A stretch of DNA of 64,000 nucleotides, from NCBI GenBank assembly GCA_905178155.1, contig CAJINV010000001.1:8029599-8093598 (forward strand), read 5' to 3'. The stretch's first letter is position 1, and the number at the start of each line of letters is the position of its first letter. The position numbers and the translations under genes are program-made. The notes below the pieces were generated by a model, which did not search any database, had not been told where the DNA came from, and was given only the letters and a program-made list of their open reading frames with translations. Origin of the DNA: Amoebophrya sp. A120. Taxonomy: Eukaryota; Protista; Dinoflagellata. This document shows, in pieces, positions 13,835 to 57,100 of the stretch.

Positions 13835-16800
13835 ATGGGTAAAACCGCTGTTGGCGGAGATAAGGATAAGGGAAAAACTGCTCGGTCTCAGAGTCAGACA
13901 GCACCCACAGCCATGGAGATGAGCAGCAATGCGCCGAGTGGCTCCGGTCGTGACCGTGAGGACACGGCTGGCAGCGCTTCAGGAATTGGCAGCGATGCCA
14001 CGAAGCCAACGCCCGCGCAAGTGCAGGAAGCGATCGACAAGGGGGCGGCACTCACGCGGGAAGAAAACGAGCAGAGGGAGATTATAACGCTCGACGATCT
14101 CTGCCGGGAGTACTCCATCCAGAAGGACGAAGAGCATGGGCCGGGACTTCTTTCGACAAAAGGCGGACAGCAGTCCGTTTACGCCGATAGAATTCGCACA
14201 TTCCACGGCTGGCTCCGGGACGACGAAAAAGTTGGGGTCATTCCCAAAAGGAACACGGACTTAAGTAAGTGGCTCCGTTTCGTCCGTTTTCAGCTTTCTG
14301 GCTCCGGCGCCCGCGGCGCGCTCTCCTCGCTATTTCCTCGCCTTATTTTCTTTTCGTCGCGCAGGCAGGCCCCGGCTAGGCTCTTCCGCCCGCCGTCTTC
14401 GTTTTCCTAGGCCAAATACCCCTCGCCCCACCCGATTTTCGTCTCATAGTTGCCCAGAGACGAGGCGACATGGAGATGATTTCAAATAGAACAAAAATAC
14501 TTTTCAACCCAATAAAGCACGACTCTCACTACAGGTAAAAAGTGGCAATGGAAACGCGGCACGGACGTGAACAACGTGCGCCAACTGATCTACCAGAAGT
14601 TTATAAGTAAGCGGCCCCGTGGAAAGATACCCAAGGACCTGAAGCATGTGCGTTATGGCGAGCCCCGAGCGACAAAGCGTACCAACCCGGATGGATCGGC
14701 AAGAGAGCCAGCTGCGAAAAAGCCGAAACGGGAGGGGGCCAAAAGTAAAAAGCCCATGAAGAAGAAGCCCGCCAGACGGGCTGGAAGCTCCAGCTCCTCC
14801 GGCAGTAGCAGCAGCGACGTCTCGGTACTAACTTTCTGTTTTGAGCTTATCCATGAGTTGTATGAGTTTCCTTGGAGGATGCGATGTGGTGTACTTATTT
14901 ATTAGACCGAGAACTAAGTAGCGCTAGCGCACCACTCATGGATGAGATTTCTGCAGCAAAAATACTAGCCTAAGATGCTTGGTGATAGTTCGATAGAGAA
15001 GAAGCTGAAGATAGCTCCAGACGAGCCTCTTGGAAATAAATCAAACTATCAACTTTTCCAGTTATCTTCGTCGGAAAGCAAAGGGAAGAAAGAGAAGAAG
15101 AAACTGGAACACGAGAGAAAAGTCGCAGCACAGGCACGGGAAAAGGAGGAGCGCAGGCGAAAAGTAGAAGCAGAGAACCACGCCAGAAGAATGTACTTTT
15201 TTTGATTTTTATTCCGAAAAATTGCGAGGCACTGACGCAGCGGCTATTGACATGCACGATGAGACGTTTTCTTTGTCATTGTCTTACCAACCTAAACTCA
15301 ACGACTCCTCATTTCTTGCAGGCGCGAAAACCGCAAGAGACTGATCGATCAGGCGAATGACAAACTCACGAGGGACAAGCAGAACGCGCATGTGATGCAT
15401 ACGACGAAGGAGAACAAGGAGGCACCATTCTACCACGCAAAAGAGGAGTTTTTTTGGAGACAGAACGTGGAGTACAAGTACAAGGAGTGGATTCTACCCG
15501 GTAGAGGCAACAATCGCGCTAGCAATGTCGCCAGTGTGACGCCGGGCGCGGAAACGTCGCATGCCACGCCCGGACAGGCGGCCACGACCGCGAATCTTCT
15601 TTCCGGGTCCGCTGCCAGTGCCGAGAACAATACCTCACGTGCGGTCAACGCAGATCTATCCGCGACCCCGGCTAACGACCTACAGGAACAGAAGCGCGGC
15701 CCCGGGGACGAAGAAGAACAATACCGCGTCATACCGCCCACTGAAGAAATTACCAAGAAGGCGAAGATCGCCTACAAGTTCATCAGCGACCCCTTCACTT
15801 GCAAGGAGGGATCCAGCATATACAGGGTTCCAATTTTGGGGAAGGGCCAGTTTGGCACTGTGTACAAAGCCTGGAGGTGCGAGTACAATGATCAAGAGGA
15901 GCTTCTGACAGAGAAGGAGAGATGGTCCCAAGTGGCCCTGAAGGTGTCACGAAAAATGTGGGATAAGGGAACCTGGAAGCTCTCGCAGAAGATCAAGAAG
16001 GAGAAGCACTACCTCGAAACCCTGGATGCGGAGAAGAGAGAGCACATGGTGCGGTTTGTCATGTGGATGCGGAGGGCTCTCGATAGGCTGCAAAAGAAAT
16101 TGAAAGGGTACATAAAACTTGAAACTTGAACAGCAACCCCATTCTTGTTCCTGTCATGTGTGTACTTAATCTCTAAATTGATAATTTCATGAGGTGGACC
16201 GACGTCGAAAGATGATACATACTTAGCCATGACGAAAACAACTAAGACCGCTCAGGCCGGGAACAATGATGTCCCCATAAAGTACTGGCGCAGATCTTCA
16301 TCTTCTCTTTCACGTTTCCTCTTGAGTTTTTCTGTCCGTATCTTGTGCACCATGACTCAACCGTATAACCATAACAACTCAACCTCTACCTCTACTCATT
16401 TCAGGGAATTGGATGGGCAGCGATACCACGACATGCAACAGAAAATCTTATCTATGCGGAGTATGGCGCCAGATACTACCTGCTTGCTTTTGATGTACGG
16501 CGGGCTAGAATCCTTCACGTTTGACGAGCATTATTTCCAGGTTTTCGAACTGGCACAGGGAAACCTGCTCGCGCTGCAGACAAAATACTCGCAGCTTATA
16601 GCCGAGGACGCCCTGAAAGTCTTCAACAAAAATCCCACGCAGACGGAATTTGCGGTATAAACGCATTTGATACAACTACAGGAGACAAAATTAAGTAGTC
16701 GAACTGCGGCGCTACTGGTCGTGTTTTTTTTGGGTTTAGCTGAGTCTTGTGCTAGTACTATCAGGTTCTATAATTGCCGTAGTCGTAGAAAAGGTAGGAC

Positions 16801-19800
16801 ATCACAAGCGAAGAACTGGGAGGTATTTACAAGGGAACTATCAATGTGACATTTCTGATTGCTTAAAACCCTGTTACGCGACATCACCACAGGTCGACAT
16901 CGGCTCGGGTGTCACCGAATGGTACCAGCAGAGCCTGAACACAGTGAAACACAGCGGCCACCACAGCCAGTACAAGATATCAAAAGGAAAAATCCCCCCT
17001 CCCCATATCGAAATGGAAATCTGTGATGCGGGATTTGTGTACACAAACCAGCTTTGCCTTGCAGTGGAGGACTGCAGACAGATACAAAGCCGGATTAGGG
17101 CTGTTTCGGCGTAGGCGCCTAGCAAGGTAGGGACATTCTCTGTAGGCCAGACAGCATTACAAATTGCCTGCAGAACGCGGCGGGGTTTTTTTGTTTGTCT
17201 TCCTGCAATACAGTGACGATTTGTGACCTCAAATCAGCATCGCAAATTTTGAGAAGTATCCCGGTCTGGTATGGGGAGGGGGGATTTTTCCTTTTGATAC
17301 AAGAAGCTGGGACTTCCTGTGCACCTTGCGGGACGCTTGGCTTTTCATGTGCTCCAAGCAATGCGATTTCTGAAGCACATCGGGTACATCCATACGGACT
17401 TGAAGCCAGAAAACATCTGCTTGCATTTGGACACCAATGGATTCAAGAGACGCAACCCGGACAACCTTCACCTTTTTCCCCCGACCTGGCACGACGACGC
17501 GGTGCATGGCAATCTGACGCCAGAAAAGAAAGCAGCGTTACAAAAACTTCCGCCTGGCGTGCTAAATACATTGAAGGCCAGAGAAACCGACATCCGCAAC
17601 AACACGCATTTTACCGCTTCTCATGGCCTGAAATTGGGCGACCTGGAGTCGTATCAATTGCAAATATGTCTGAGTCTGGATTTTTTGTCATTGAGGCTTT
17701 GAAGGACGACGAGCACGAGATGAGGATCTGTGATGCATGGAAGGATAAGAGTAAGCAGTTTTGTTCTACTTTGGCTGGACATGAGTTTGTCACAGAAAAT
17801 AAGGTGGGATAGACTTCGCAACAATACCCGAGAAAATTGTTTTAACGGGTCCGTGCAGTATAAACAGCTGCCTTGATCATGTCATGTACATGTTTCACGA
17901 CTCAGCATGACAAGTGGCATGCTTTTAATATGCAGAAGCAGACTCAGACATTTTTTCATTTGACAAGTTTTACTTCGCGAACTGCACCGCAAAATTAGCA
18001 GATTTGGGAGAGATTCAAAAGGCTCCTATCAACGTGCCGTCGCAAAAGGATTCTATTCAGCCTCCGTGGTATAGAGCGCCCGAAGTGTACTTCGGCGATT
18101 GGCCGCTAACTCCGGCGATGGACATGTGGTCGATGGCGGTAACCATGCACAGTCTATGCACGGGCGGCGACATGCTGTTCCCCAGCCATACAAAGGACCA
18201 CGGCCAGCCGCCGCACGGATGTTGCACGTAATAGTGTGATTTTTACGCATTGTGTTGACACTTCTATTCTATCCCTATGTTCTGGATTTACTCGGATAAA
18301 GTGCGTGTTTTCCATCGGGCTTCGAGTGTATGAGCATTATGACCAAGTAGAAGATGACCTCCAAAACGGCAACGACAGCGATCTTGCGGCGCGGATCGTT
18401 TGGAGAAGATCTGCAGGTCTCGCTGGAGTTGTAGAGCATCATCAAAGATGGACACGGTGTCACAATCACAATGATTATTTTGTTAAAACAAAAAACAAAC
18501 AGGAAACGCTGGCACATGCAACGCATATTTGAGATAACCGGGCCATGTCCCAGATACCTCGTCGATCGGGCCGTGGAAGCGCACCACAAAGCTTATTTCC
18601 AGCATGACGAGCACGGTCAGCGAATTTTCGGCGAGAATGATATGCCAGTGCCGAAGGAGGGCGCTGCCGACAATCCAATGCGACCCAAGGCTTTGAAGGT
18701 ACTTCCTTATCTGGTGCGACGTAAGGATAAGCTTAAGCACGCTACATGACTCATGTAGCTTGCTTACGATGAGCTCTAACTCTATTTCTACCGTGGACAG
18801 AGAATTTGCAGAGTCATATTAAGGGGCTCTAGTGGCAATATTATCAAGAGGAACGACTCGTGGCGATTTCGGCTTGTGCGAAAGCGACTTCTAGATTTAT
18901 ATCATGCAGGATGTTGTAACCAAAATGGGACACGTGAAGATCGTGAGGGTCATTGTCATTCCATGAAATGAACATAACGCAGGCAAACGAGGGCCCCCTA
19001 ATCCAGGATTTCTTCAGTATGACAACGGACTTCACCAAAAACGAGTTACATCTCGCGAAGTGCTACGACTACCTGAAAAACCCGCGCGACGCGGGACCGG
19101 CGATTTGGGACCAAAAGAAAGTTTTCAAGCGGCAGCACAATCTGATGAGCATGTTTCAGTTGACTCGCATGCAATACCGACAGCTGGCAGTTCCGCTATC
19201 GCTGGCAAAAATCATGTTTGTGGAACCGGTTCGTGGAAAAACCGAGGTTGATGTACGGAAGTCGGACGAAATGCGGCACTTCATTTTCTCGCAGGGTGCG
19301 GTCACCACGAAACTGGAACACGCAGGGCTCCGGCAGTCGTTTAACTTCGACCCGGCTACCCTGATGGGTGTCTCTGAATTCACTACGAACGTGGAGCAAG
19401 ACTTCGAGGCAGAGATGGACGAAAATAAGTTCTACGAGTCCGAGACGATTCGGAAAACGGAGGAGGACATCAAGAAAGCCAGTCCCAGCCCCGACGATGA
19501 CGAGGACGAGGGTCCGGCGTTCGAGCCGATGCAGGATGACGGTGCGGCGCAGCCGGAGGAGCAGGCAAACAAGGAGCCGAACAGCCCGGAAGAGGCGCGC
19601 TCAGGCAAAGAAGACGACGACAACGACGATTCAAGCGATAGTGATAGTGGTTCCAGTGGCAGCAGCTCTGGTGAAGACGAGGACAGCGACAAAGATGAAG
19701 CTGCTGCCAGCCCGGCGGAAGGAGACTCGAATGTTGACGCAGCTGCCGATAAAGTTGCGGCCGGCCCGGATGGCGTGCCGGACCCGGAGCAGGCAGAGAA

Positions 19801-20254
19801 GGAAGCGGCTGATGCGGAGATGCCAGATGCAAACGGTGGCGTCGATGCGGCCAATGTTGCCGTCCCGGCAAAGGCCGCGGCGAGTTCGAGTAGCGCAAGC
19901 GCCAACTCGGGCGACGGCAATGCTGCAAAAGGATCAGCGGCTCAGCCAGACGAGTCCGATCGCACTCCGGCGGGTGCTGATGTCACGCCGGGTGGAGTGG
20001 CTGCACCGAAGAGAAGGCAGCCGCCAGCTCTCCCTCCGCAACCTGCTGCCCGGAGACCCACCGGCATGGACCTTAAGAGTGTGCAAGATCAGCTTCGCGC
20101 AAAGTTGGAGATTGAGTACTGCGACCTGATTTGGCAAATGATCACCCTCGACAAGGAATTGAGGATAACTCCCGAAAAGGCAATCAAGCATGAGTTTTTC
20201 CGCACCCTCCAGCGACTGAAGCCGGAGGCTTTCAAGACGGTCCATGATGCCTGA
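13835..20254 (+). CDS. CMGC-group (SRPK/DYRK/CLK-like) Ser/Thr kinase, 10 exons
   Basis: Phase-consistent exons: 13835-14264, 14535-14824, 15062-15192, 15322-16053, 16405-16654, 16893-16976, 17304-17649, 17969-18227, 18503-18698, 18983-20254. The join yields GKGQFGTV, VALK, HTDLKPEN, KLADLG, IQPPWYRAPE, DMWS and RITPEKAIKHEFF. Seven introns are GT-AG and two are non-canonical TIR introns. Confidence 0.8.
16978..17299. mobile_element. Introner/MITE-like element A (322 bp) forming a non-canonical intron
   Basis: Perfect 30-bp TIR TATCAAAAGGAAAAATCCCCCCTCCCCATA (16978-17007 / 17270-17299) and perfect 5-bp TSD CAAGA (16973-77 / 17300-04). Removing 327 nt joins HSQYK to KLGLPVHLAG, just before the HTDLKPEN region. 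Confidence 0.92.
17652..17965. mobile_element. Introner/MITE-like element B (314 bp) forming a non-canonical intron
   Basis: 27-bp TIR with 23/27 matches (TATCAATTGCAAATATGTCTGAGTCTG) and degenerate TSD AGTCG/AGTTT. Removing 319 nt gives LGDLE-FYFANCTAKLADLG. Same family as the fumarase element. Confidence 0.88.
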
Positions 20255-41875: not shown

Positions 41876-44800
41876 ATGATCTTGTTGCGCCCGCGACCAG
41901 GCCGTCGCAAGGACGGCAGTGCGTCTACCTTTTCCGGCTTCGTGCACACGTTTTCTGAGGAAACACTTAGATTTATGTACGTGGCGACTGTCTTCCTGCA
42001 CTTTTGTGATTGGGGGCTGCTGCGCACAGCCACAGCGTCTTCGTTGATCAATGACAAGAGAACCGCCGACTCGCAAACGAGTATTTTGCGGGGCAGGAAG
42101 AGGAACAGCCGGGAGAGCAGCAGCCGTGATGGAAGTATGGCATCACGTAGATCAGGTGGTTATGCTCGACCTCTGCGAGATCGAGATGAGGAAAATAAAA
42201 GTGCCTTACTAGGCTCTCCCCGAGCGCGAAATCGTTCTCGGGGCCAGGAGTTGCTGGTTCCGTCACAAGAGACATCGACCGAGGAAGAGACCACACGGGC
42301 TTCCCCTGGTGGAAAGGGCAATCAGACTGATGGTGATGATACCGCAAAAGTTTGCAAGCTCAGCAGCACTGGTGTGGTAACAAAAAAAATGCGGAAACCC
42401 ACGAAGAAGGTCTTGCGTGCTTCCGACGACGCGCAAGAGAGACTAAGGCACATGTTTGGAGAGCATTCCTGGCGCAGTTGCAAGTGCTACGATCGTATGA
42501 ATTGCAAATATCGTCGTGCCCGGGTCCTGAAACTGGTGATGCGGAATTGTGGATGGTTGGATAGGAACAGTTCTAAGTGCATCCAAGCATGATAAATTTT
42601 TCAAACGACCCTTTCGCCGGCGCAGCGCTCACAAAGAAGGTGCGCTATTGTGGGTTGTGCAACACTTTCATCTGGTCCTTTGAAAGGAATCATGCAAGTT
42701 AAGCTGTGTATTTGCAAGCTCAACTTTTCCGGAGACGGAGATATTTGCATTGCATAGGCCGACCACGCAGCGATGAGGCAGAGCAGCGCAGACTCAACAA
42801 CGAAAGCTCGTTGACTTCTTCCTTTTCAATTGACGGCACCGCGGACTGCGGCACTTCGACAGCAGTGCGGCAGGCATGTAGTGTTTGCAAGGAGTGGTCT
42901 GCAAGCAGTGACAGCACAGGCTGTGGAGGTTTCGCGCTGAAACAAGAAAACGGAAAGTGTGTAGGACGAGTGTATCCGCAACCGCGGCAGCTTCTGACTG
43001 CATCATCCTCGGCAGCCGGTCATACGAAGGGCAGTTTTCTGGAAATGTTTCAACGTAAATCTAAATATTTGGCGTCCGCGACCACTTCTGGAAACGAAAA
43101 GGCAAAGTCGAACCTCGGCGCCGCCAAAAGGCACCAGCAGGATACCACTGCAGACAAGGAGGCGGACGGTATCCATAGCTCCGGGACGTGCGCGGTTAAT
43201 CGGCGGGGTCTGACTGCCGCCATGTCGAAAACTTTTTCCGTTCTGGACACAAAGATCTCCAAGGAAGACCAGGAGCGGATGAACGACGCTGAACTGAGTT
43301 CGAATGCCGAAAACGATGTTGAGAGTCTTGGAAATAGAATCCAAACTGCCGCACTGCCGAACAAGAATGCGGGTACCGGTGTCGTGTACGACACAGTGAA
43401 GTGGGTTCTGGAGCGATCGGCACTCGCAAGTTCGAGCGAGAGCGCTGCCGCGATTCCGGACCTCGCGCATTCGGTTGTTAACGCGACGTTCCAGGAAGCG
43501 ACGAACGGTGCGATCGATGAGCCGCCCGCTCGTCTGCAGAGTGCCATCGTCCTAATCGAACTCGAAGTCGCTGTAGTCACGTCAGTCCCGACGGGCGCCT
43601 ATGTTGGTCGTGACCCCGCAGACACCGCAATGAGAGCAGCGAAGGAAGTGCTCGTAAGACGTGACGTCGAAGCGACGGAGGCCGGCTGGCTGGCGAAACG
43701 CTATGTCGAGAGCTACTTCAAGCTTGGCGCTGCGGATGAACTGATAAAAGCAAATATTTTGGGGGCTTTGGGGCTTCCTGTACTGACACCTCTTCCCAAA
43801 AACGCGCTCAGGGACGCGGCGTTCGCGCGGCTGCAGAGGGTTGTGAAGAGCAATGTCGGCGATGAAGACAGAGGTGCCGTGGTGGCAGCCTTGACGCGGA
43901 CGATACTTGGGATCGTTGACGGAGCGAGCATTGATGAAGCGACGGTCACCACGGACGCTGAAGCGATTGCGGACGCGGCTATCGTGTGGCATTCGGATCG
44001 GAATGACACAACCCTTGCAGCCGTCCACCACGCCATCAAAACCGCTCTCCTCGCCGCCGGGTTTACGTGGCCAGATCAAATGGAGCATAACACGGAAAAC
44101 ACCGCTGCGGCAGACACGATTGCGGACGGTAATTCTACTGCGCTACCCAGCGCCGCTTCTGCAGAAGCACGGATTCGCGCATACGTGCGAGATAACGAAG
44201 GGACGCATCACCGAGACTTTGTGCGCAACCTAAGACCGATTCTACAGACTGCAGGTCTGCCGCAAACCGGCTCACCACCACGGGATCTTTTTCACGCGAC
44301 TACCATCGCTGACGCCGTTTGCGGCGTAGATTCATCATGGGTTCTTCCAAAAGAGGATATCAACGTGGACGGTCTTTCCGCTGCGATCACGGCGGCGCTC
44401 ACCGAGGCTCAGACCTTTGCAGACACAGATGAAACCTCCACCGTGGTCTCGTCCTTTCTATTGAAGCTTGACGCACCAGAACACCAAGACAGGGCGTCGC
44501 TCGAAAAGCTCGAAGATGTGGTACTCGAGGTCTACGGCGGTTTGGAATCGACAGAGAAAGAAACCGTACGCGTAGCAGAGCTCTACGAAGCGGTCGAGCA
44601 AAAACGCTGGTGCGAACACGGCACCCATGAGGACGAGTGTACGCCTTTTGTGTGCACTTTCACGCCAAGAAGCGAGCTCACCACGACTGAGCAACCAGTA
44701 GAACGACCCGACCGGCACAACGACGCGGACGCGTGGAGATGGCTCGCAACCGTAGACGGCGACATTGATCTAAATTTGCGTGTTCCGTATCTTACGAATG

Positions 44801-46673: not shown

Positions 46674-48963
46674 ATGCCGTTCATCAGCCTTCGAAGTTGC
46701 CTTTTCCCCCAGCACCTACTTCTTGGGGCCCTAGTACAGCTCAACAGTCTCTTCGCGGCCGGCGAGCGACCGGATTTCCGGTGCACCGCCGACTGCCGCG
46801 TCGAGAAGGACACCATGGGGGAAATCCAAGTGCCGGCCGCCGCGTTGTGGGGGGCGCAGACGCAGCGCAGCTTGGAAAATTTCGTTATCGGGGACGACGA
46901 AATGCCCACCGAATTGATCCGGGCGTTCGGGGTACAGAAGAAGGCGTGCGCGCTGGCGAATCGCAAAGCGTTGGGCGACAAAATTTCTGACGCGATCCAG
47001 CAGGCGGCGGACCAGGTTTTGGCCGGCAAGTACGCGGACCAGTTTCCGCTTGTCGTGTACCAGACCGGGAGTGGCACGCAGACCAATATGAACGTGAACG
47101 AGGTGTTGGCCAACCTCGCAAACGAATACCTCGGGGAGACCGATCGCAGCAAGAAGGCGCCAGTGCACCCGAACGACCACGTGAACCGCGGGCAGTCGAC
47201 CAACGACGCGTTCCCGACCGCGATGCACATCGCCGCGGTTCTGTCCGTCCAGCGCAAGTTGCTCCCCGCCCTGGAGAAATTGCACATGGCGCTGAACAAA
47301 AAAGCGAAGGAGTTCGCCGACGTGGTGAAGATTGGGCGCACCCACATGCAGGACGCGACGCCGCTGACCCTGGGCCAGGAGTTCGGCGCCTGGGCGGAGC
47401 AGGTGAAGCTGTCCAAGAACCGGCTGCAAGCCGCGCTCCCGCGGCTCTACGCGCTGCCCCAGGGCGGCACCGCGGTCGGAACGGGGCTGAATCAGGTCGA
47501 GGGCTTCGACAAGAAATTTGCGGAGTACGTCGGCAGCATCGTCGAAATTCCCGGGTTCCGGACGAACGAGAACAAGTTCGAAGGCATCGCGGCGCACGAC
47601 GCTTTATGGATTGTAAAAATGTCTGGGTCTGGAAGAATGCAAGATTTGTCATGCTTGTCTGGCATGACTCTTAAATCTGTCATGCACATGGCCCAAGAGA
47701 CGTTTTTTTCTGTCATGCGGAGACGCAGCTTGTCATGCAGAATAGGCAACACCTACAAGCTCAGAAATTTGTCATGCTGAGCCAGCACTTGTGGCCTCCT
47801 CATGCTACGCCACTCAGCATCACAAGTTTCCAGACCCAGACATTTTTACATTTGATACGCGTTCGTGGAGCTCGCCGGTGTGCAGAATACCATCGCGGGC
47901 ACCTTCATGAAGCTGGCCAACGATCTGCGGCTGCTGTCCTCGGGCCCGACGGGGGGCTTGGCGGAACTTTGGTTGCCCGCCAACGAACCGGGGTCCTCCA
48001 TCATGCCGGGGAAAGTCAACCCGACGCAGGCCGAGGCCATGAGCATGGTGGCAGCCCAGGTAATGGGCAACGCGGTGGCGGTCAGCGTCGCGAACTCCCA
48101 CGGCCACCTGGATCTGCAGGCGTTTAAACCTGTCATCATTTTCAACATTTTGAAATCGAACAACCTACTCGCGGACGTCGCCGTGTCTTTCGCAGACAAG
48201 TGCGTGTCTGGCATTCAGCCCAACTTGCCCAAAATTCAGGAACACCTGGACAAAAACCTCATGCTGGTCACGGCCCTGAACCCAACGATAGGTACATAGT
48301 AGTAGTACTTTTTGTTCTGACAATGAATCGAGCGACCGGTAAGGTTAGTCGAGGCAAGTGACAAATCATGATCATCTTCGTTCTTCAAGATCCAATGCTA
48401 CACACGATCCAAGCGAAAATTTGTAAACGGATCATGGAGGTAGAGGAGCTATGTATGGAACGAACGACCATGAAAAATGATGACAATTACCTAAACCTAA
48501 TTCTCCACGGAGCCGCTCATGCGGCTTTGATGAGACCTTTAATAAATCGTATTCGTACTGTCTGAAAAATGTGAAGACGTCATTAGATCACAAGAATGAA
48601 AAACCTGATGAGAAACTTCAACCATAGAATCACTCCACGCCGAGGCGAAATGCTTTGCTGGTGACGATTCCTGCGAAACACATGCACTACCATCTGACAA
48701 AGAGCAAGTAAACGATCAACTTCGTAAAAGATTAGAGAATGATCGCGCCAAAAGGCTTCGATGAAACAAATTTCAATCATGATCCTACAGGTTACGAAAA
48801 GGCCGCAGATGTAGCGAAGACTGCTTTGAAGGAGGGGAAAACGTTGAAGCAGGTCGCTGTGTTTGAAAAGAAATACTTGACTGCAGCGCAATTTGACGCC
48901 GCCGTCGTACCTGCAAAGATGGTTCGGCCCGCACCTGCCAGCGGCGCAAAATCCGAATTATGA
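46674..48963 (+). CDS. fumC: Class II fumarate hydratase, 3 exons
   Basis: [42 protein letters not shown] and [13 protein letters not shown]. Exons 46674-47602, 47861-48291 and 48791-48963; intron 1 is a TIR element and intron 2 is GT-AG, phase 1. Confidence 0.95.
47605..47857. mobile_element. Introner/MITE-like element D (253 bp) forming a non-canonical intron in fumarase
   Basis: 30-bp TIR with 27/30 matches, including a perfect 23-bp core TGTAAAAATGTCTGGGTCTGGAA (47612-34 / 47828-50); TSD CGCTT/CGCGT. Removing 258 nt restores conserved AAHDA-FVELAG. Confidence 0.93.
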
Positions 48964-54100: not shown

Positions 54101-57100
54101 ACCAACACGACCGGCTTCCGACGGCAGCCACGTGCGCAGCGAGCGGCAGCTTCGTTTCGAGACACACGCGTGGAGCCAGGCTCGATACCGGACACGCTTC
54201 TGAAGGACAAAATGCGTGCGGCATCTAAGGACGAAAAAGCAAATCAAAATAAGCCAGCGGCGTCGGTGCCGAAAAGTTCAGGTTCATCTTCTCGCCGGAC
54301 TATAATTGATGTGGATCAGGAGGACGTGAGGAGCGACATGAACAACGATCTCGAGAACGACAACGAGAGCAAGAGACCCGTGAAGCACTACGCCATGCCA
54401 CTGGACCGTACGGCGCGACAATCTGCCCGCGGTCGCGAAGAGCAGAGCATATCGAAAGGGACAGCGACGTCCACATCGCAACCCCCAATCAGCATCCCAG
54501 TTGCGTCCCCCTTTGTCGACAACGGCAACCGTATCTCCGCGCTGGAGAAGGAACTTTTTCAGACCAAATCGAAACTGCGGCTGCAGGAGATGAGCGAGCG
54601 AGAGTCCACGAAACGCAACAGGCTCCAAGTGTTGAACTTGAAAAAGGAACTGCAGAAGGTTAGCATCCGGCCACCTCGTACTTGGAAATTTGTTCAAAAG
54701 GAGTTCAAAGATGAGTTCAAAGCGAGTTCAGAACGAGTTCAAAGCGAGTTCAATAATTTGGACCAAGTCAATTGACCTATCGCAAAAATCGCAATGAGCC
54801 AGCTACCTTTTGTCGAAAGTCAATTGCCTTTGCGTGGAGTTTGCGATAAGTCAATTGTCTTTGTTCGGAATTTGCATAAAGTCAAGTGCCTTCATCCAAA
54901 TTTCAAGAAAAGTCAACTGACTTCTCCTGAAGTCGGCTCATTTCACAAACGGGCAGCAAAGCTTTGAAGTATGTGCGCGCTTTTTTTTGCTAGGGCTCCG
55001 AAACGACCAGAGGCGCGCGCCGTTGGTTTGCGTTTTCCCGTGCCGCCCTGCGATTTCGAGAACGGCCCGAAGACACGGGGACGACAAGACGCAAAAAGGG
55101 GCGCAAAGCCGCACAACAGAGGCTCCCGTCTGCCTTCTCCACCCTCAGATCTGTTCCCGGCGACTTCGCGACGGGATTCAAGGGTGGGGAAACGGGGCGG
55201 GCGCCACTGCATCTGCAGGAGAAGCAGAAACTGAGCGGCTGGGGCCCAACAAGTCGGACAGGCATAGTAGTCCGTTGGCTTCCCCGCGATTGAGTAGGTG
55301 CAGGGGCGTTGCTTGCAAAAAAGTCAATTGTCTTTTTCAAAAATTCGCAAAGAGTCAATTGTCTTTTTCAAAAATTCCCAATAAGTCAAGTGCCTTCTTG
55401 CGGAATTGGAGGGTCTTCTTGGTTGACTTTTATTGCGAAAGACAGAAGTCAGTTGACTTTTCTGGAAAAGGCTTGCAGAAGTCAATTGACTTCTCATTGA
55501 CTTTGCTCAGAAACGAGAACGCCACTGACGTCGCTCGGAATCACGCGAACGCGAGGGGTCATTTGACCTTGCTCGGAAGTCGCCAAAAGTCTTTTGACGA
55601 TTGCAATTTTTTTAGGTCAACTGATAATGGGCAAATTATTGAACTCGTAATGAACTCGGAATGAACTCGCTTTTGAACTCGTGTTCCAGTCTTTTTGAAA
55701 ACTATGAAAGTACGAGGTGGTCCCGTGCTAAAGAAGGTCCAAACCGCATTGACGGGCACTGGGCAAACTCGCGCGACAAAAAATTCTGCAGCGATGGGCG
55801 ATACTGTTAATACCAACGAAAGTGATCAAATGGAAAGAAAAACAGCCGGGCCCACCACGCTGGAAGATAGTCCTGCTAAATTTTCGGAGGCCAACATGCG
55901 AAGAACGTCGACCACTTCTGCGTCGCCAGGCGCGCTTGCTGCACAGCAGGTGGCTCTCACGATGGATGAGGAGTTGAAAGATTTGACTTCTACTATTGCA
56001 GCACTCGAGGACCAGGCAAAGGATTTGGAAAAGGCTGCGACGCAAGTCAACTACGTCATTCAGCAAAAGCCATTTGCAAAGCGAGCATTTTCCGCCATCG
56101 ATCCCGTGGCGCGTCGCGATCGAGGGCGTCGGACGACGCAAAGATCGCCGTCGAGTAGTCCGCCTCGCACGAGCGGTAAACAAGGAGTGCGAAGCAAATC
56201 AGGGGGGCGGTCCACTTCTCCCGCCTCCCCCACAGGAGGACGGGGACGCAGATACGCTGAGCCAAGAGGCCGGAGCCGGGCAACGAAGTCTCAAAGCAGA
56301 GCAGCTTCGTCGAAAGGGGAACGACGTGGCAGCGAGGGGAAAATAAACAAAGAAAAGAACAGCACGTCGATTCATGACATCTTCAACAAGAACGATCAGA
56401 AGGCGAAGGCAAAGGAAGATCCGTCCCAGCACTCACCAAACTTGCTCATGCCGGTCAGCAACCAGCCGTTTTCGCTCGAGGCCGCGATTGAGGCACTGCG
56501 GCGCTCCACGTCGCCCCTGTCCGAGAGCAAGAACGTGAAGTTTCTGCAGCAGGTCCGCCTCACGTCGCCGAGCGATGAGCTGTTCCTGTACCGTCAGCGG
56601 GAAGCGGCCCGGGAAGCTTTGAAGCGGGTGCGGGATGCCATCGAGGAGAAGAAGGCCCGGATTCGATTTCTGAAATCCGATGCGTATCGCCGAAAGTCTG
56701 AGGAGGACTTGGCGCGGCTGGAAGCGGTGTCCTCCATGATGTTTGCGAACCAGGAGCGTGCCAGGCCCAGCTACGCGCGGGCTACCGAGTCGTCCCGATC
56801 GCGGAGCGTCTCCCCGCGGCAGCGACAGCAGGACGTGAGTCCAACGGATTCGAACGCAGTTTGGCGAGGTTCCTTGCGCCACGAAGTTGCGGCCTCCCCT
56901 GCATCACCAACTGCAGAGAAGCGGAAAGAGGTGCGCACTTCTTCCACTAGCAGACCACTTCTGACGACAGCCACAACCTCTGAAAATGATCAGCAGCAGC
57001 CTAGTACCTTTACCCGAAATAACGAGTTTTCACTGGCTATCAGCAGCAGCGCTGACCAGCAAAGTAGGTCGGAACATGCTCGTGCGCCGTCCGGGCCGCC

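What the first reader, a model, noticed from the sequence alone, without database searches (positions are those of the whole stretch)
17647..17970. Elements B and D are dispersed copies of one family, 30 kb apart in unrelated genes
Seen: right ends CAGACTCAGACATTTTTTCATTTGACA (B) and CAGACCCAGACATTTTTACATTTGATA (D); left arms TTGCAAATATGTCTGAGTCTGGA and TTGTAAAAATGTCTGGGTCTGGA; shared internal CTCAGCAT(G/C)ACAAGT and ATCTGT(G/C)ATGCA. Within each copy both arms carry the same variant (GAGTC in B, GGGTC in D). Inference: transposition created both introns, and the arm-to-arm covariation suggests base pairing is maintained.
Basis: partly seen in the sequence, partly recalled or inferred. Interest (0 to 1): 0.8.

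Follow-up and report, generated by a model that had tools for sequence, protein, structure and literature searches.

The report
Transposon-born hairpin introns in parasitic dinoflagellate
Two related 250-310-base stretches with matching inverted ends interrupt a kinase gene and a fumarase gene of the marine parasite Amoebophrya A120, are missing exactly from what are likely its messenger RNAs, and are likely old transposon insertions of the 'introner' kind already described in this genome, so the finding is real but mostly known.

Summary
Observation confirmed. B (17652-17965) and D (47605-47857) are related inverted-repeat elements in a kinase gene and a fumarase gene. The fumarase is 100% identical to an Amoebophrya sp. 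A120 protein, and the arms carry the TAT-N7-AAA motif that Farhat 2021 described for A120 introners. The class is therefore already known. Transcript-type contigs skip each element plus exactly 5 nt. In 121 full copies from another assembly, 102 have an exact 5-bp target-site duplication, which supports transposition. B belongs only to the broad family: D has a 96% identical copy, whereas B's interior is heavily decayed, and neighbours C and A are also related. The covariation claim is mostly unsupported. Rare arm changes are one-sided 77 times and compensated once, and transcribed strands show no G-U bias. Two arm positions do covary modestly. A small new point: B's decayed duplication pins the cut to 1 nt before and 4 nt after the hairpin. 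This is the only register that fits all four elements, and it makes the donor read N-TAT, like the host's GTAY donors. The scan noted a similar intron in another genome before.

The parts
17652..17965 (+). Element B: 314-nt terminal-inverted-repeat (TIR) introner, decayed member of the family, inside a protein-kinase gene
   Evidence: arms 17654-17678 / 17939-17963; family profile 58 bits
17651..17969 (+). Intron B as spliced: 319 nt, GT..TT, no positional ambiguity (1 nt before the TIR, 4 nt after)
   Evidence: joint 17650 to 17970 in contigs of X3, X5, X6, both=0; not in X1; registers
17647..17651 (+). Left target-site copy of B (AGTCG); 3 of 5 match the right copy
17966..17970 (+). Right target-site copy of B (AGTTT)
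47605..47857 (+). Element D: 253-nt TIR introner of a young subfamily, inside the class II fumarase gene
   Evidence: arms 47605-47634 / 47828-47857; 244 of 253 identical to L042; profile 189 bits
47604..47861 (+). Intron D as spliced: 258 nt, TT..CG (placements +1 and +2 fit equally)
   Evidence: joint 47603 to 47862 in X3 and X5, not in X1
47600..47604 (+). Left target-site copy of D (CGCTT); 4 of 5 match the right copy
47858..47862 (+). Right target-site copy of D (CGCGT)
14533..20254 (+). Host gene of B and A: multi-exon protein kinase (5' end lies further upstream); open 1204-codon frame after the transcript joints
   Evidence: Pfam PF00069 positions 100-132 before B and 137-202 after it, each piece below the curated cut-off
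46674..48963 (+). Host gene of D: class II fumarate hydratase, 510 aa, three exons
   Evidence: Pfam PF00206 positions 1-244 before D and 246-312 after it; P0001
42496..42756 (+). Element C: more distant relative in the same broad family (profile match on the - strand); 261 nt, skip 266, duplication 3 of 5
   Evidence: one X3 contig, table 8
16978..17299 (+). Element A: same outer end motif and internal repeat, different inner arm; 322 nt, skip 327, perfect duplication CAAGA

Best explanation
B and D are related non-coding elements with inverted ends that sit inside a kinase exon run and a fumarase exon run of Amoebophrya A120 and are skipped, together with exactly 5 extra bases, in likely transcript contigs; they likely arose by insertion of a non-autonomous DNA transposon (introner) that duplicates 5 bases of target, and are likely removed by the host spliceosome at a fixed position set by the element ends. 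Shown: relatedness, 5-bp duplication, either orientation in genes, exact skipping, restored reading frames. Inferred: a DDE-type transposase in trans makes a 5-nt staggered cut. Splicing cuts 1 nt before the left TIR and 4 nt after the right TIR, so one full target copy leaves with the intron and the mRNA is restored at any site. The donor then reads N-TAT, like the host's GTAY donors, and because both ends are alike it works in either orientation. The arms probably pair loosely in the pre-mRNA and bring the ends together, but their similarity is explained mainly by descent from a TIR element, not by compensatory change.
For: Organism: exon 1 of the fumarase is 100% identical over 262 aa to P0001, named Amoebophrya sp. 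A120, and P0001 reads through with D removed. Splicing: joints; skip = element + 5 for A, B, C and D. Duplication: 5 nt exact in 102 of 121 copies, other lengths 2-9 exact in 0-10. Orientation to the gene 30 vs 25. Register -1/+4 is the only one common to all four and is unique for B. All 7 canonical donors seen start GTA, 6 of them GTAY. No GT or AG enrichment at that register in 65 copies (GT 14, AG 7). The A120 motif TAT-N7-AAA of PMC7789003 (section 11) is met by A, B, C and D. Hairpins fold: D z -7.5, B z -2.25.
Against: The register is pinned by one element only (B; three runs, two samples); the other three are merely compatible. The runs are guessed to be RNA and are assembled contigs, not reads. 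No transposase or empty site was found. B's interior alone does not reach significance against the family profile (E 0.11). The role of the spliceosome was not tested; PMC7789003 reports U1 snRNA as undetected in this genome. Positions 10 and 14 covary more than within-subfamily shuffles give (31 and 3 of 3000), so some selection or conversion on pairing is not excluded.
Confidence: 0.85

Rival explanations
1. One reading: arm-to-arm pairing is under purifying selection in the pre-mRNA, with compensatory changes, and B's A-U pair at position 22 is one of them.
For: B has A22 on both arms where 121 of 121 left arms and 119 of 121 right arms have G. Positions 10 and 14 agree more than shuffles (80 vs 62.3, 95 vs 74.9) and partly so within subfamilies. 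Total agreement 3248 vs 3227.9 +/- 9.6, 45 of 2000 shuffles.
Against: 77 one-sided vs 1 compensated rare change; 212 one-sided vs 17 complementary and 7 non-complementary two-sided departures from subfamily consensus; G-U 29 vs A-C 41, p 0.19. Only 11 of 121 copies have perfect 28-nt arms, median 3 mismatches. Position 4 shows no covariation (73 vs 73.4). On 18 sequences: 3 pairs with two-sided change vs 2.8 shuffled, 315 of 500. The A22 variant exists elsewhere (1 of 253 arm matches, L076; an X1 loose end of 4 contigs), so B may have inherited it. Caveat: most copies are young, so compensation may not have had time.
Confidence: 0.2
2. The hairpin is cut out by a spliceosome-independent endonuclease/ligase, as proposed for Euglena nonconventional introns, with cut positions measured from the stem.
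For: No GT or AG requirement; fixed spacing from a stem; U1 undetected in A120 (PMC7789003, passage). Euglena uses fixed spacers around a paired motif (PMC12501133, abstract).
Against: The donor at this register reads N-TAT, matching +2 to +4 of the host's GTAY donors. Nearly all spliceosomal proteins and U2, U4, U5, U6 are reported in A120 (PMC7789003). Stem mismatches are freely tolerated. The Euglena signature N3CDG is not met by B (GTATCA) or D (TTATGG).
Confidence: 0.2
3. B and D are unrelated introns or separate families that only share a host splicing signal at their ends.
For: By blastn, B's interior hits 1 of the other 124 interiors (30 nt) and joins no cluster. In the interior-only profile B scores 5.4 bits, below A at 13.9. 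A shares the outer end motif with another inner arm.
Against: B and D share the inner arm TGTCTG.GTCTG that A lacks. The whole-element profile covers B end to end (E 1.7e-17). B aligns collinearly with family interiors in a multiple alignment. B-D interior score exceeds all 1000 shuffles.
Confidence: 0.08
4. The copies spread by intron transposition through RNA (reverse splicing) rather than by a DNA transposase.
For: PMC7789003 (section 16) found no transposase in A120 and doubted general transposase mobilisation.
Against: Constant 5-bp duplication with fixed element ends. Near-equal insertion in both orientations. The conserved unit is the TIR-bounded element, not the spliced intron, whose first 1 and last 4 bases vary with the target. 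PMC12130899 (passage) reports an A120 TIR-flanked family with integrase-like ORFs.
Confidence: 0.07

Closest known systems
Introner elements (IEs) of Amoebophrya sp. A120 (Farhat et al. 2021, PMC7789003; abstract, passages, sections 11, 12, 16 and supplement text passages read; figures not seen)
   Same: Same genome; non-GT-AG intron near the reported mean of 240 nt; inverted ends starting TAT-N7-AAA; 3-5 nt direct repeat over the junction; repeated families.
   Different: Nothing in kind. Here the direct repeat is resolved to exactly 5 bp, the arms run 25-30 nt (paper: 8-20), and a fixed -1/+4 cut is proposed where the paper's Fig. 3 legend calls the border variable or unknown.
A120 'TIR DNA, family unknown' introner families of Gozashti et al. 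2025 (PMC12130899; passages and parts 1, 15, 16 of Dataset S2 read)
   Same: Short TIR elements of 250-320 bp with mixed splice ends. Family 12 (331 copies, 252-260 bp) fits D by size. Family 19 is given a 5-bp duplication by manual inspection.
   Different: No sequences were seen, so B and D could not be assigned to a numbered family. Duplication lengths in the rows read vary from 2 to 6 or are missing.
Introners of Micromonas and Aureococcus (as summarised in PMC11282704, passages, and PMC7789003 section 16)
   Same: MITE-like elements whose target duplication lets splicing restore the mRNA.
   Different: Those end up with canonical splice sites, one co-opted from the duplication. Here no canonical dinucleotide is needed.
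Euglena nonconventional introns (PMC12501133, abstract) and Fritillaria non-canonical introns (PMC13326754, abstract)
   Same: Splicing without GT-AG; in Euglena a paired motif at fixed spacing from the junctions.
   Different: Different signature and spacing. In Fritillaria divergent U2AF and U1 m6A are implicated, whereas A120 is reported to lack detectable U1.

Membership tests
Amoebophrya A120 introner elements (Farhat 2021) | Lies in the A120 genome | tested here: met
   fumarase exon 100% identical to P0001, named Amoebophrya sp. A120; A25 ortholog 78%
Amoebophrya A120 introner elements (Farhat 2021) | Transcript-supported intron without GT-AG ends | tested here: met
   B GT..TT, D TT..CG in contigs of runs guessed to be RNA, which also skip seven GT-AG introns; X1 does not join across them
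Amoebophrya A120 introner elements (Farhat 2021) | Inverted repeat joining the two intron ends, starting TAT, seven bases, three or more A | tested here: met
   left arms of A, B, C, D; B's right arm has one change in the terminal triplet
Amoebophrya A120 introner elements (Farhat 2021) | Direct repeat of 3-5 nt over the exon/intron boundary | tested here: met
   B 3 of 5, D 4 of 5; family 5 of 5 in 102 of 121
Amoebophrya A120 introner elements (Farhat 2021) | Repeated, member of a dispersed family | tested here: met
   158 loci listed; D 96% identical to L042; B profile E 1.7e-17
D's young subfamily | Interior sequence clearly similar to D's (B tested) | tested here: not met
   13 of 121 copies are 84-96% identical to D; B has no blastn interior hit to them and 5.4 bits on the interior profile
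Non-autonomous TIR DNA transposon (MITE) | Short, non-coding, terminal inverted repeats, constant-length target duplication, either orientation | tested here: met
Non-autonomous TIR DNA transposon (MITE) | Cognate autonomous element or transposase with the same ends | tested here: inconclusive
   no long ORF (longest 143 codons) behind unpaired arms in 38 loci, but at most 627 nt were in view; genome not held
Non-autonomous TIR DNA transposon (MITE) | Empty orthologous site with one target copy | not testable with these tools
   only the A25 protein, not its DNA, was available
Canonical-site introners (Micromonas, Aureococcus) | GT-AG ends, one co-opted from the duplication | tested here: not met
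   B lacks AG, D lacks both; GT..AG in 2 of 65 copies at this register
Euglena nonconventional introns | Signature N3CDG ... CH'GN5-6|R | tested here: not met
   B starts GTATCA, D starts TTATGG (signature from the abstract)
Conserved RNA structure with compensatory change | Two-sided complementary changes beyond descent | tested here: inconclusive
   absent at 22 near-invariant positions (1 vs 77) and at position 4; modest at positions 10 and 14
Spliceosomal intron | Lariat and branch point, snRNP dependence | not testable with these tools
   needs reads or experiments

The most novel reading that the evidence does not exclude
The 'highly variable' splice sites of A120 introners are one fixed code: donor 1 nt before the terminal TAT, acceptor 4 nt after the terminal ATA. 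The spliceosome reads N-TAT as a degenerate GTAY donor without U1 and finds the acceptor by distance from the element end, not by AG. This 1+4 geometry matches the 5-bp target duplication exactly, so every insertion at any site, in either orientation, is a perfect intron from birth.
Probability: 0.55. Interest if true: 0.5.

Novelty: already known. Interest (0 to 1): 0.22.

Why it matters
As found, this re-detects a published class in the genome where it was described, so it matters little on its own. The useful residue is a sharper, testable rule. How A120 splices tens of thousands of non-canonical introns with no detected U1 snRNA is stated as open in PMC7789003. A fixed -1/+4 register, read from copies whose duplications have decayed, would turn that question into a simple genome-wide count and would correct the junction annotation. 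The negative result also matters: matching arms in a TIR-derived intron are not evidence of selection on RNA pairing.

Tried and rejected
No whole genome is held for the window or for the assembly behind the family loci, so no genome-wide A120 count was possible. A 19-letter arm pattern in viral contigs gave 21 single-arm matches with no second arm and no internal motif; rejected as chance. A 3- or 4-bp duplication, suggested by B and D alone, and a TA duplication (Tc1/mariner-like) were rejected by the family test. Enrichment of NNAGG targets or GT/AG ends: not found (2 of 65). G-U bias on the transcribed strand: not found. A closer-to-consensus 5' arm: 30 vs 21, p 0.26, not significant. Search for an autonomous partner behind unpaired arms: nothing within the short flanks. 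Run X16 (2026 raw RNA reads, same species label) laid only 77 reads, all on D's right arm with foreign flanks and none on exons, so it gave no read-level junction evidence. Summed contig depth on D (about 2e5 vs 43 on flanks) points to many copies but is not a copy number. No earlier notes exist for this genome.

Full report
Observation. The eight quoted motifs are all present at the stated places. B is 17652-17965 (314 nt) and D is 47605-47857 (253 nt); each is bounded by inverted arms of 25-30 nt. Their global alignment score exceeds all 1000 dinucleotide shuffles, with and without the arms; the local interior score is reached by 2 of 1000.

Organism and host genes. Exon 1 of the gene around D is 100% identical over 262 aa to P0001, which its sources name Amoebophrya sp. 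A120; the A25 ortholog is 78% identical (best 120 of 8000 scored candidates listed). P0001 reads through the D site as AHDAFVE, the same as my translation from the transcript joints. Pfam Lyase_1 positions 1-244 lie before D and 246-312 after it. Pkinase positions 100-132 lie before B and 137-202 after it, each piece below the curated cut-off. Long ORFs are mostly on the + strand (12345 vs 3086 codons), as reported for the unidirectional gene clusters of this genus (PMC7789003 abstract).

Splicing. Contigs of X3 and X5 join 47603 to 47862. Contigs of X3, X5 and X6 (two samples) join 17650 to 17970 and 16970 to 17298. One X3 contig has contiguous pieces ending at 42493 and starting at 42760 (table 8). 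X1 shows none of these joints. These runs are only guessed to be RNA, but they also skip seven GT-AG introns; X1 may be the window's own source and is not independent. In all four elements the skip equals element + 5 nt. Equivalent placements relative to the left TIR are -7 to 0 for A, -2 to 0 for C, -1 to +1 for D and only -1 for B, so -1/+4 is the single shared register. With the joints the kinase frame is open for 1204 codons. All 7 canonical donors seen start GTA, 6 of them GTAY; at -1 the four introners start ATAT, GTAT, GTAT and TTAT.

Family. One degenerate arm pattern, with positions 22 and 24 left free, gave 158 loci in metagenome contigs, all from contigs of accession JACKZZ01; the scan stopped at its limit and estimated about 520 stretches. 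129 arm pairs were found in 120 of the 158 loci. I dropped 8 (5 longer than 340 nt, 3 off-register), leaving 121 of 240-324 nt. A 5-bp duplication is exact in 102 of 121 (mean identity 0.95); lengths 2-4 and 6-9 are exact in 0-10 (0.24-0.32). Removing element + 5 gave the best coding score in 89 of 120 scored copies, a figure biased upward because the strand was chosen under that removal. In 65 copies with a confident coding strand, 55 had a clear orientation, 30 like D and 25 reversed; donors at -1 were AT 24, CT 15, GT 14, TT 12, and 7 acceptors were AG. D is 244 of 253 identical to L042, and 13 copies are 84-96% identical to it. B's interior has one 30-nt blastn hit. A profile from the 121 copies scores D 189 bits, B 58 (E 1.7e-17, end to end), C 32 (E 1.7e-9) and A 7.6. 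The interior-only profile scores D 126, A 13.9, C 6.2 and B 5.4 (E 0.11). B does align collinearly with family interiors (B, D and 16 of the 121 copies). B lies inside one 30-kb X1 contig, whereas X1 contigs break at D and A, which fits B being old and unique and D being young. So B and D are one family in the broad, TIR-defined sense; B is a decayed member and not a close copy of D.

Covariation. For: both arms of B carry A22. Arm agreement exceeds shuffles at position 10 (80 vs 62.3; 1 of 2000) and 14 (95 vs 74.9; 0 of 2000), in total 45 of 2000, and partly survives within-subfamily shuffling (31 and 3 of 3000 at one threshold, 151 and 31 at another). Against: position 4 shows none (73 vs 73.4). 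Positions 5, 7 and 15 fall at or below expectation, though my search pattern biases these downward. At the 22 near-invariant positions changes are one-sided 77 times and complementary once. Departures from paired subfamily consensus are 212 one-sided, 17 complementary and 7 not. G-U versus A-C mismatches on the transcribed strand are 29 vs 41. Only 11 of 121 copies have perfect arms. The pair-count tool on 18 sequences, whose 16 family rows match the pattern on both arms, gives 3 two-sided pairs vs 2.8 shuffled and a covariation score reached by 31 of 500 shuffles. B has four uncompensated mismatches. The A22 variant occurs in 1 of 253 arm matches and in an X1 loose end. Inheritance from a parent with A on both arms, arm-to-arm conversion and true compensation cannot be told apart from one copy. 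The hairpins do fold (D z -7.5, B z -2.25), as any TIR element would.

Mechanism. Shown: fixed ends, 5-bp duplication, both orientations, exact removal of element plus one target length. Inferred: insertion by a transposase in trans with a 5-nt stagger (general knowledge of DDE enzymes; none found here), and splicing at -1/+4, which restores the target sequence whatever it is. Least certain: that the spliceosome does it, reading N-TAT as a weak donor.

What is known. Farhat et al. 2021 (PMC7789003; abstract, passages, sections 11, 12, 16, supplement text passages) describe these elements in this genome: 29,850 repeated introns in A120, IR motif TAT-N7-AAA, direct repeats of 3-5 nt, U1 not detected, and borders called variable or unknown in the Fig. 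3 legend. Gozashti et al. 2025 (PMC12130899; passages, Dataset S2 parts 1, 15, 16) list 58 A120 families, many 'TIR DNA, unknown', one with a manual 5-bp duplication. PMC11282704 (passages) reviews them. PMC12005148 (passages) finds them confined to part of the genus. PMC12501133 and PMC13326754 were seen as abstracts. I found no statement of a fixed -1/+4 register in the texts read from seven searches, but figures, unread supplement parts and Roy et al. 2023 (seen only in reference lists) were not available to me. An earlier scan note (e1-7695377) reports a similar intron in another dinoflagellate and cites the same paper; I did not test it.

Verdict. Real and correctly read as transposon-born introns, but already known; covariation claim mostly unsupported; interest 0.22. 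The fixed-register reading (probability 0.55) is the part worth following up.

Noticed in passing
L023-L179 (121 copies) and window 47605-47857: The six variable positions in the outer 15 nt of the arms are nearly decoupled from the interior. In 32 disjoint close pairs they differ at 0.35 per site against 0.11 for equally variable interior columns; random pairs give 0.39 and 0.43. The same few end variants recur across subfamilies. This suggests end exchange or hypermutable ends, but chimeric paths in a short-contig assembly are not excluded.
   Followed up: partly
window 54660-55731: A different 1072-nt TIR element (ends TTAGCA...TGCTAA) with internal AAGTCAATTG and GAGTTCAAA repeats and a 6-nt duplication AGAAGG. 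Removing element + 6 leaves an open frame, and a cut 1 nt before the TIR gives GT..AG. X1 holds variant copies. Splicing was not seen.
   Followed up: partly
window 16978-17299: Element A has perfect 30-nt arms and a perfect duplication, a different inner arm but the same outer motif and internal repeat; very many X1 contigs lie on it. It sits in the same kinase gene as B, 350 nt upstream.
   Followed up: partly
window 47828-47857: Run X16 (2026, same species label) has 77 reads matching D's right arm with foreign flanks and none on the exons: either another strain that shares the family or one retained copy in an abundant RNA.
   Followed up: no
L095 601 (+) and L096 601-627 (-), same contig: The two arms bound a roughly 970-nt element with matching 5-nt flanks (CGCCG); possibly nested copies. 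No long ORF in the parts seen.
   Followed up: no
window 46674-48963: Apart from Amoebophrya and one unnamed eukaryote protein, the best-scoring relatives of the fumarase piece are mostly bacterial class II fumarases at 61-66%; no tree was built.
   Followed up: no
window 15391-15453: A weak match to the family interior (E 0.18-0.33) inside a kinase exon; probably chance.
   Followed up: no
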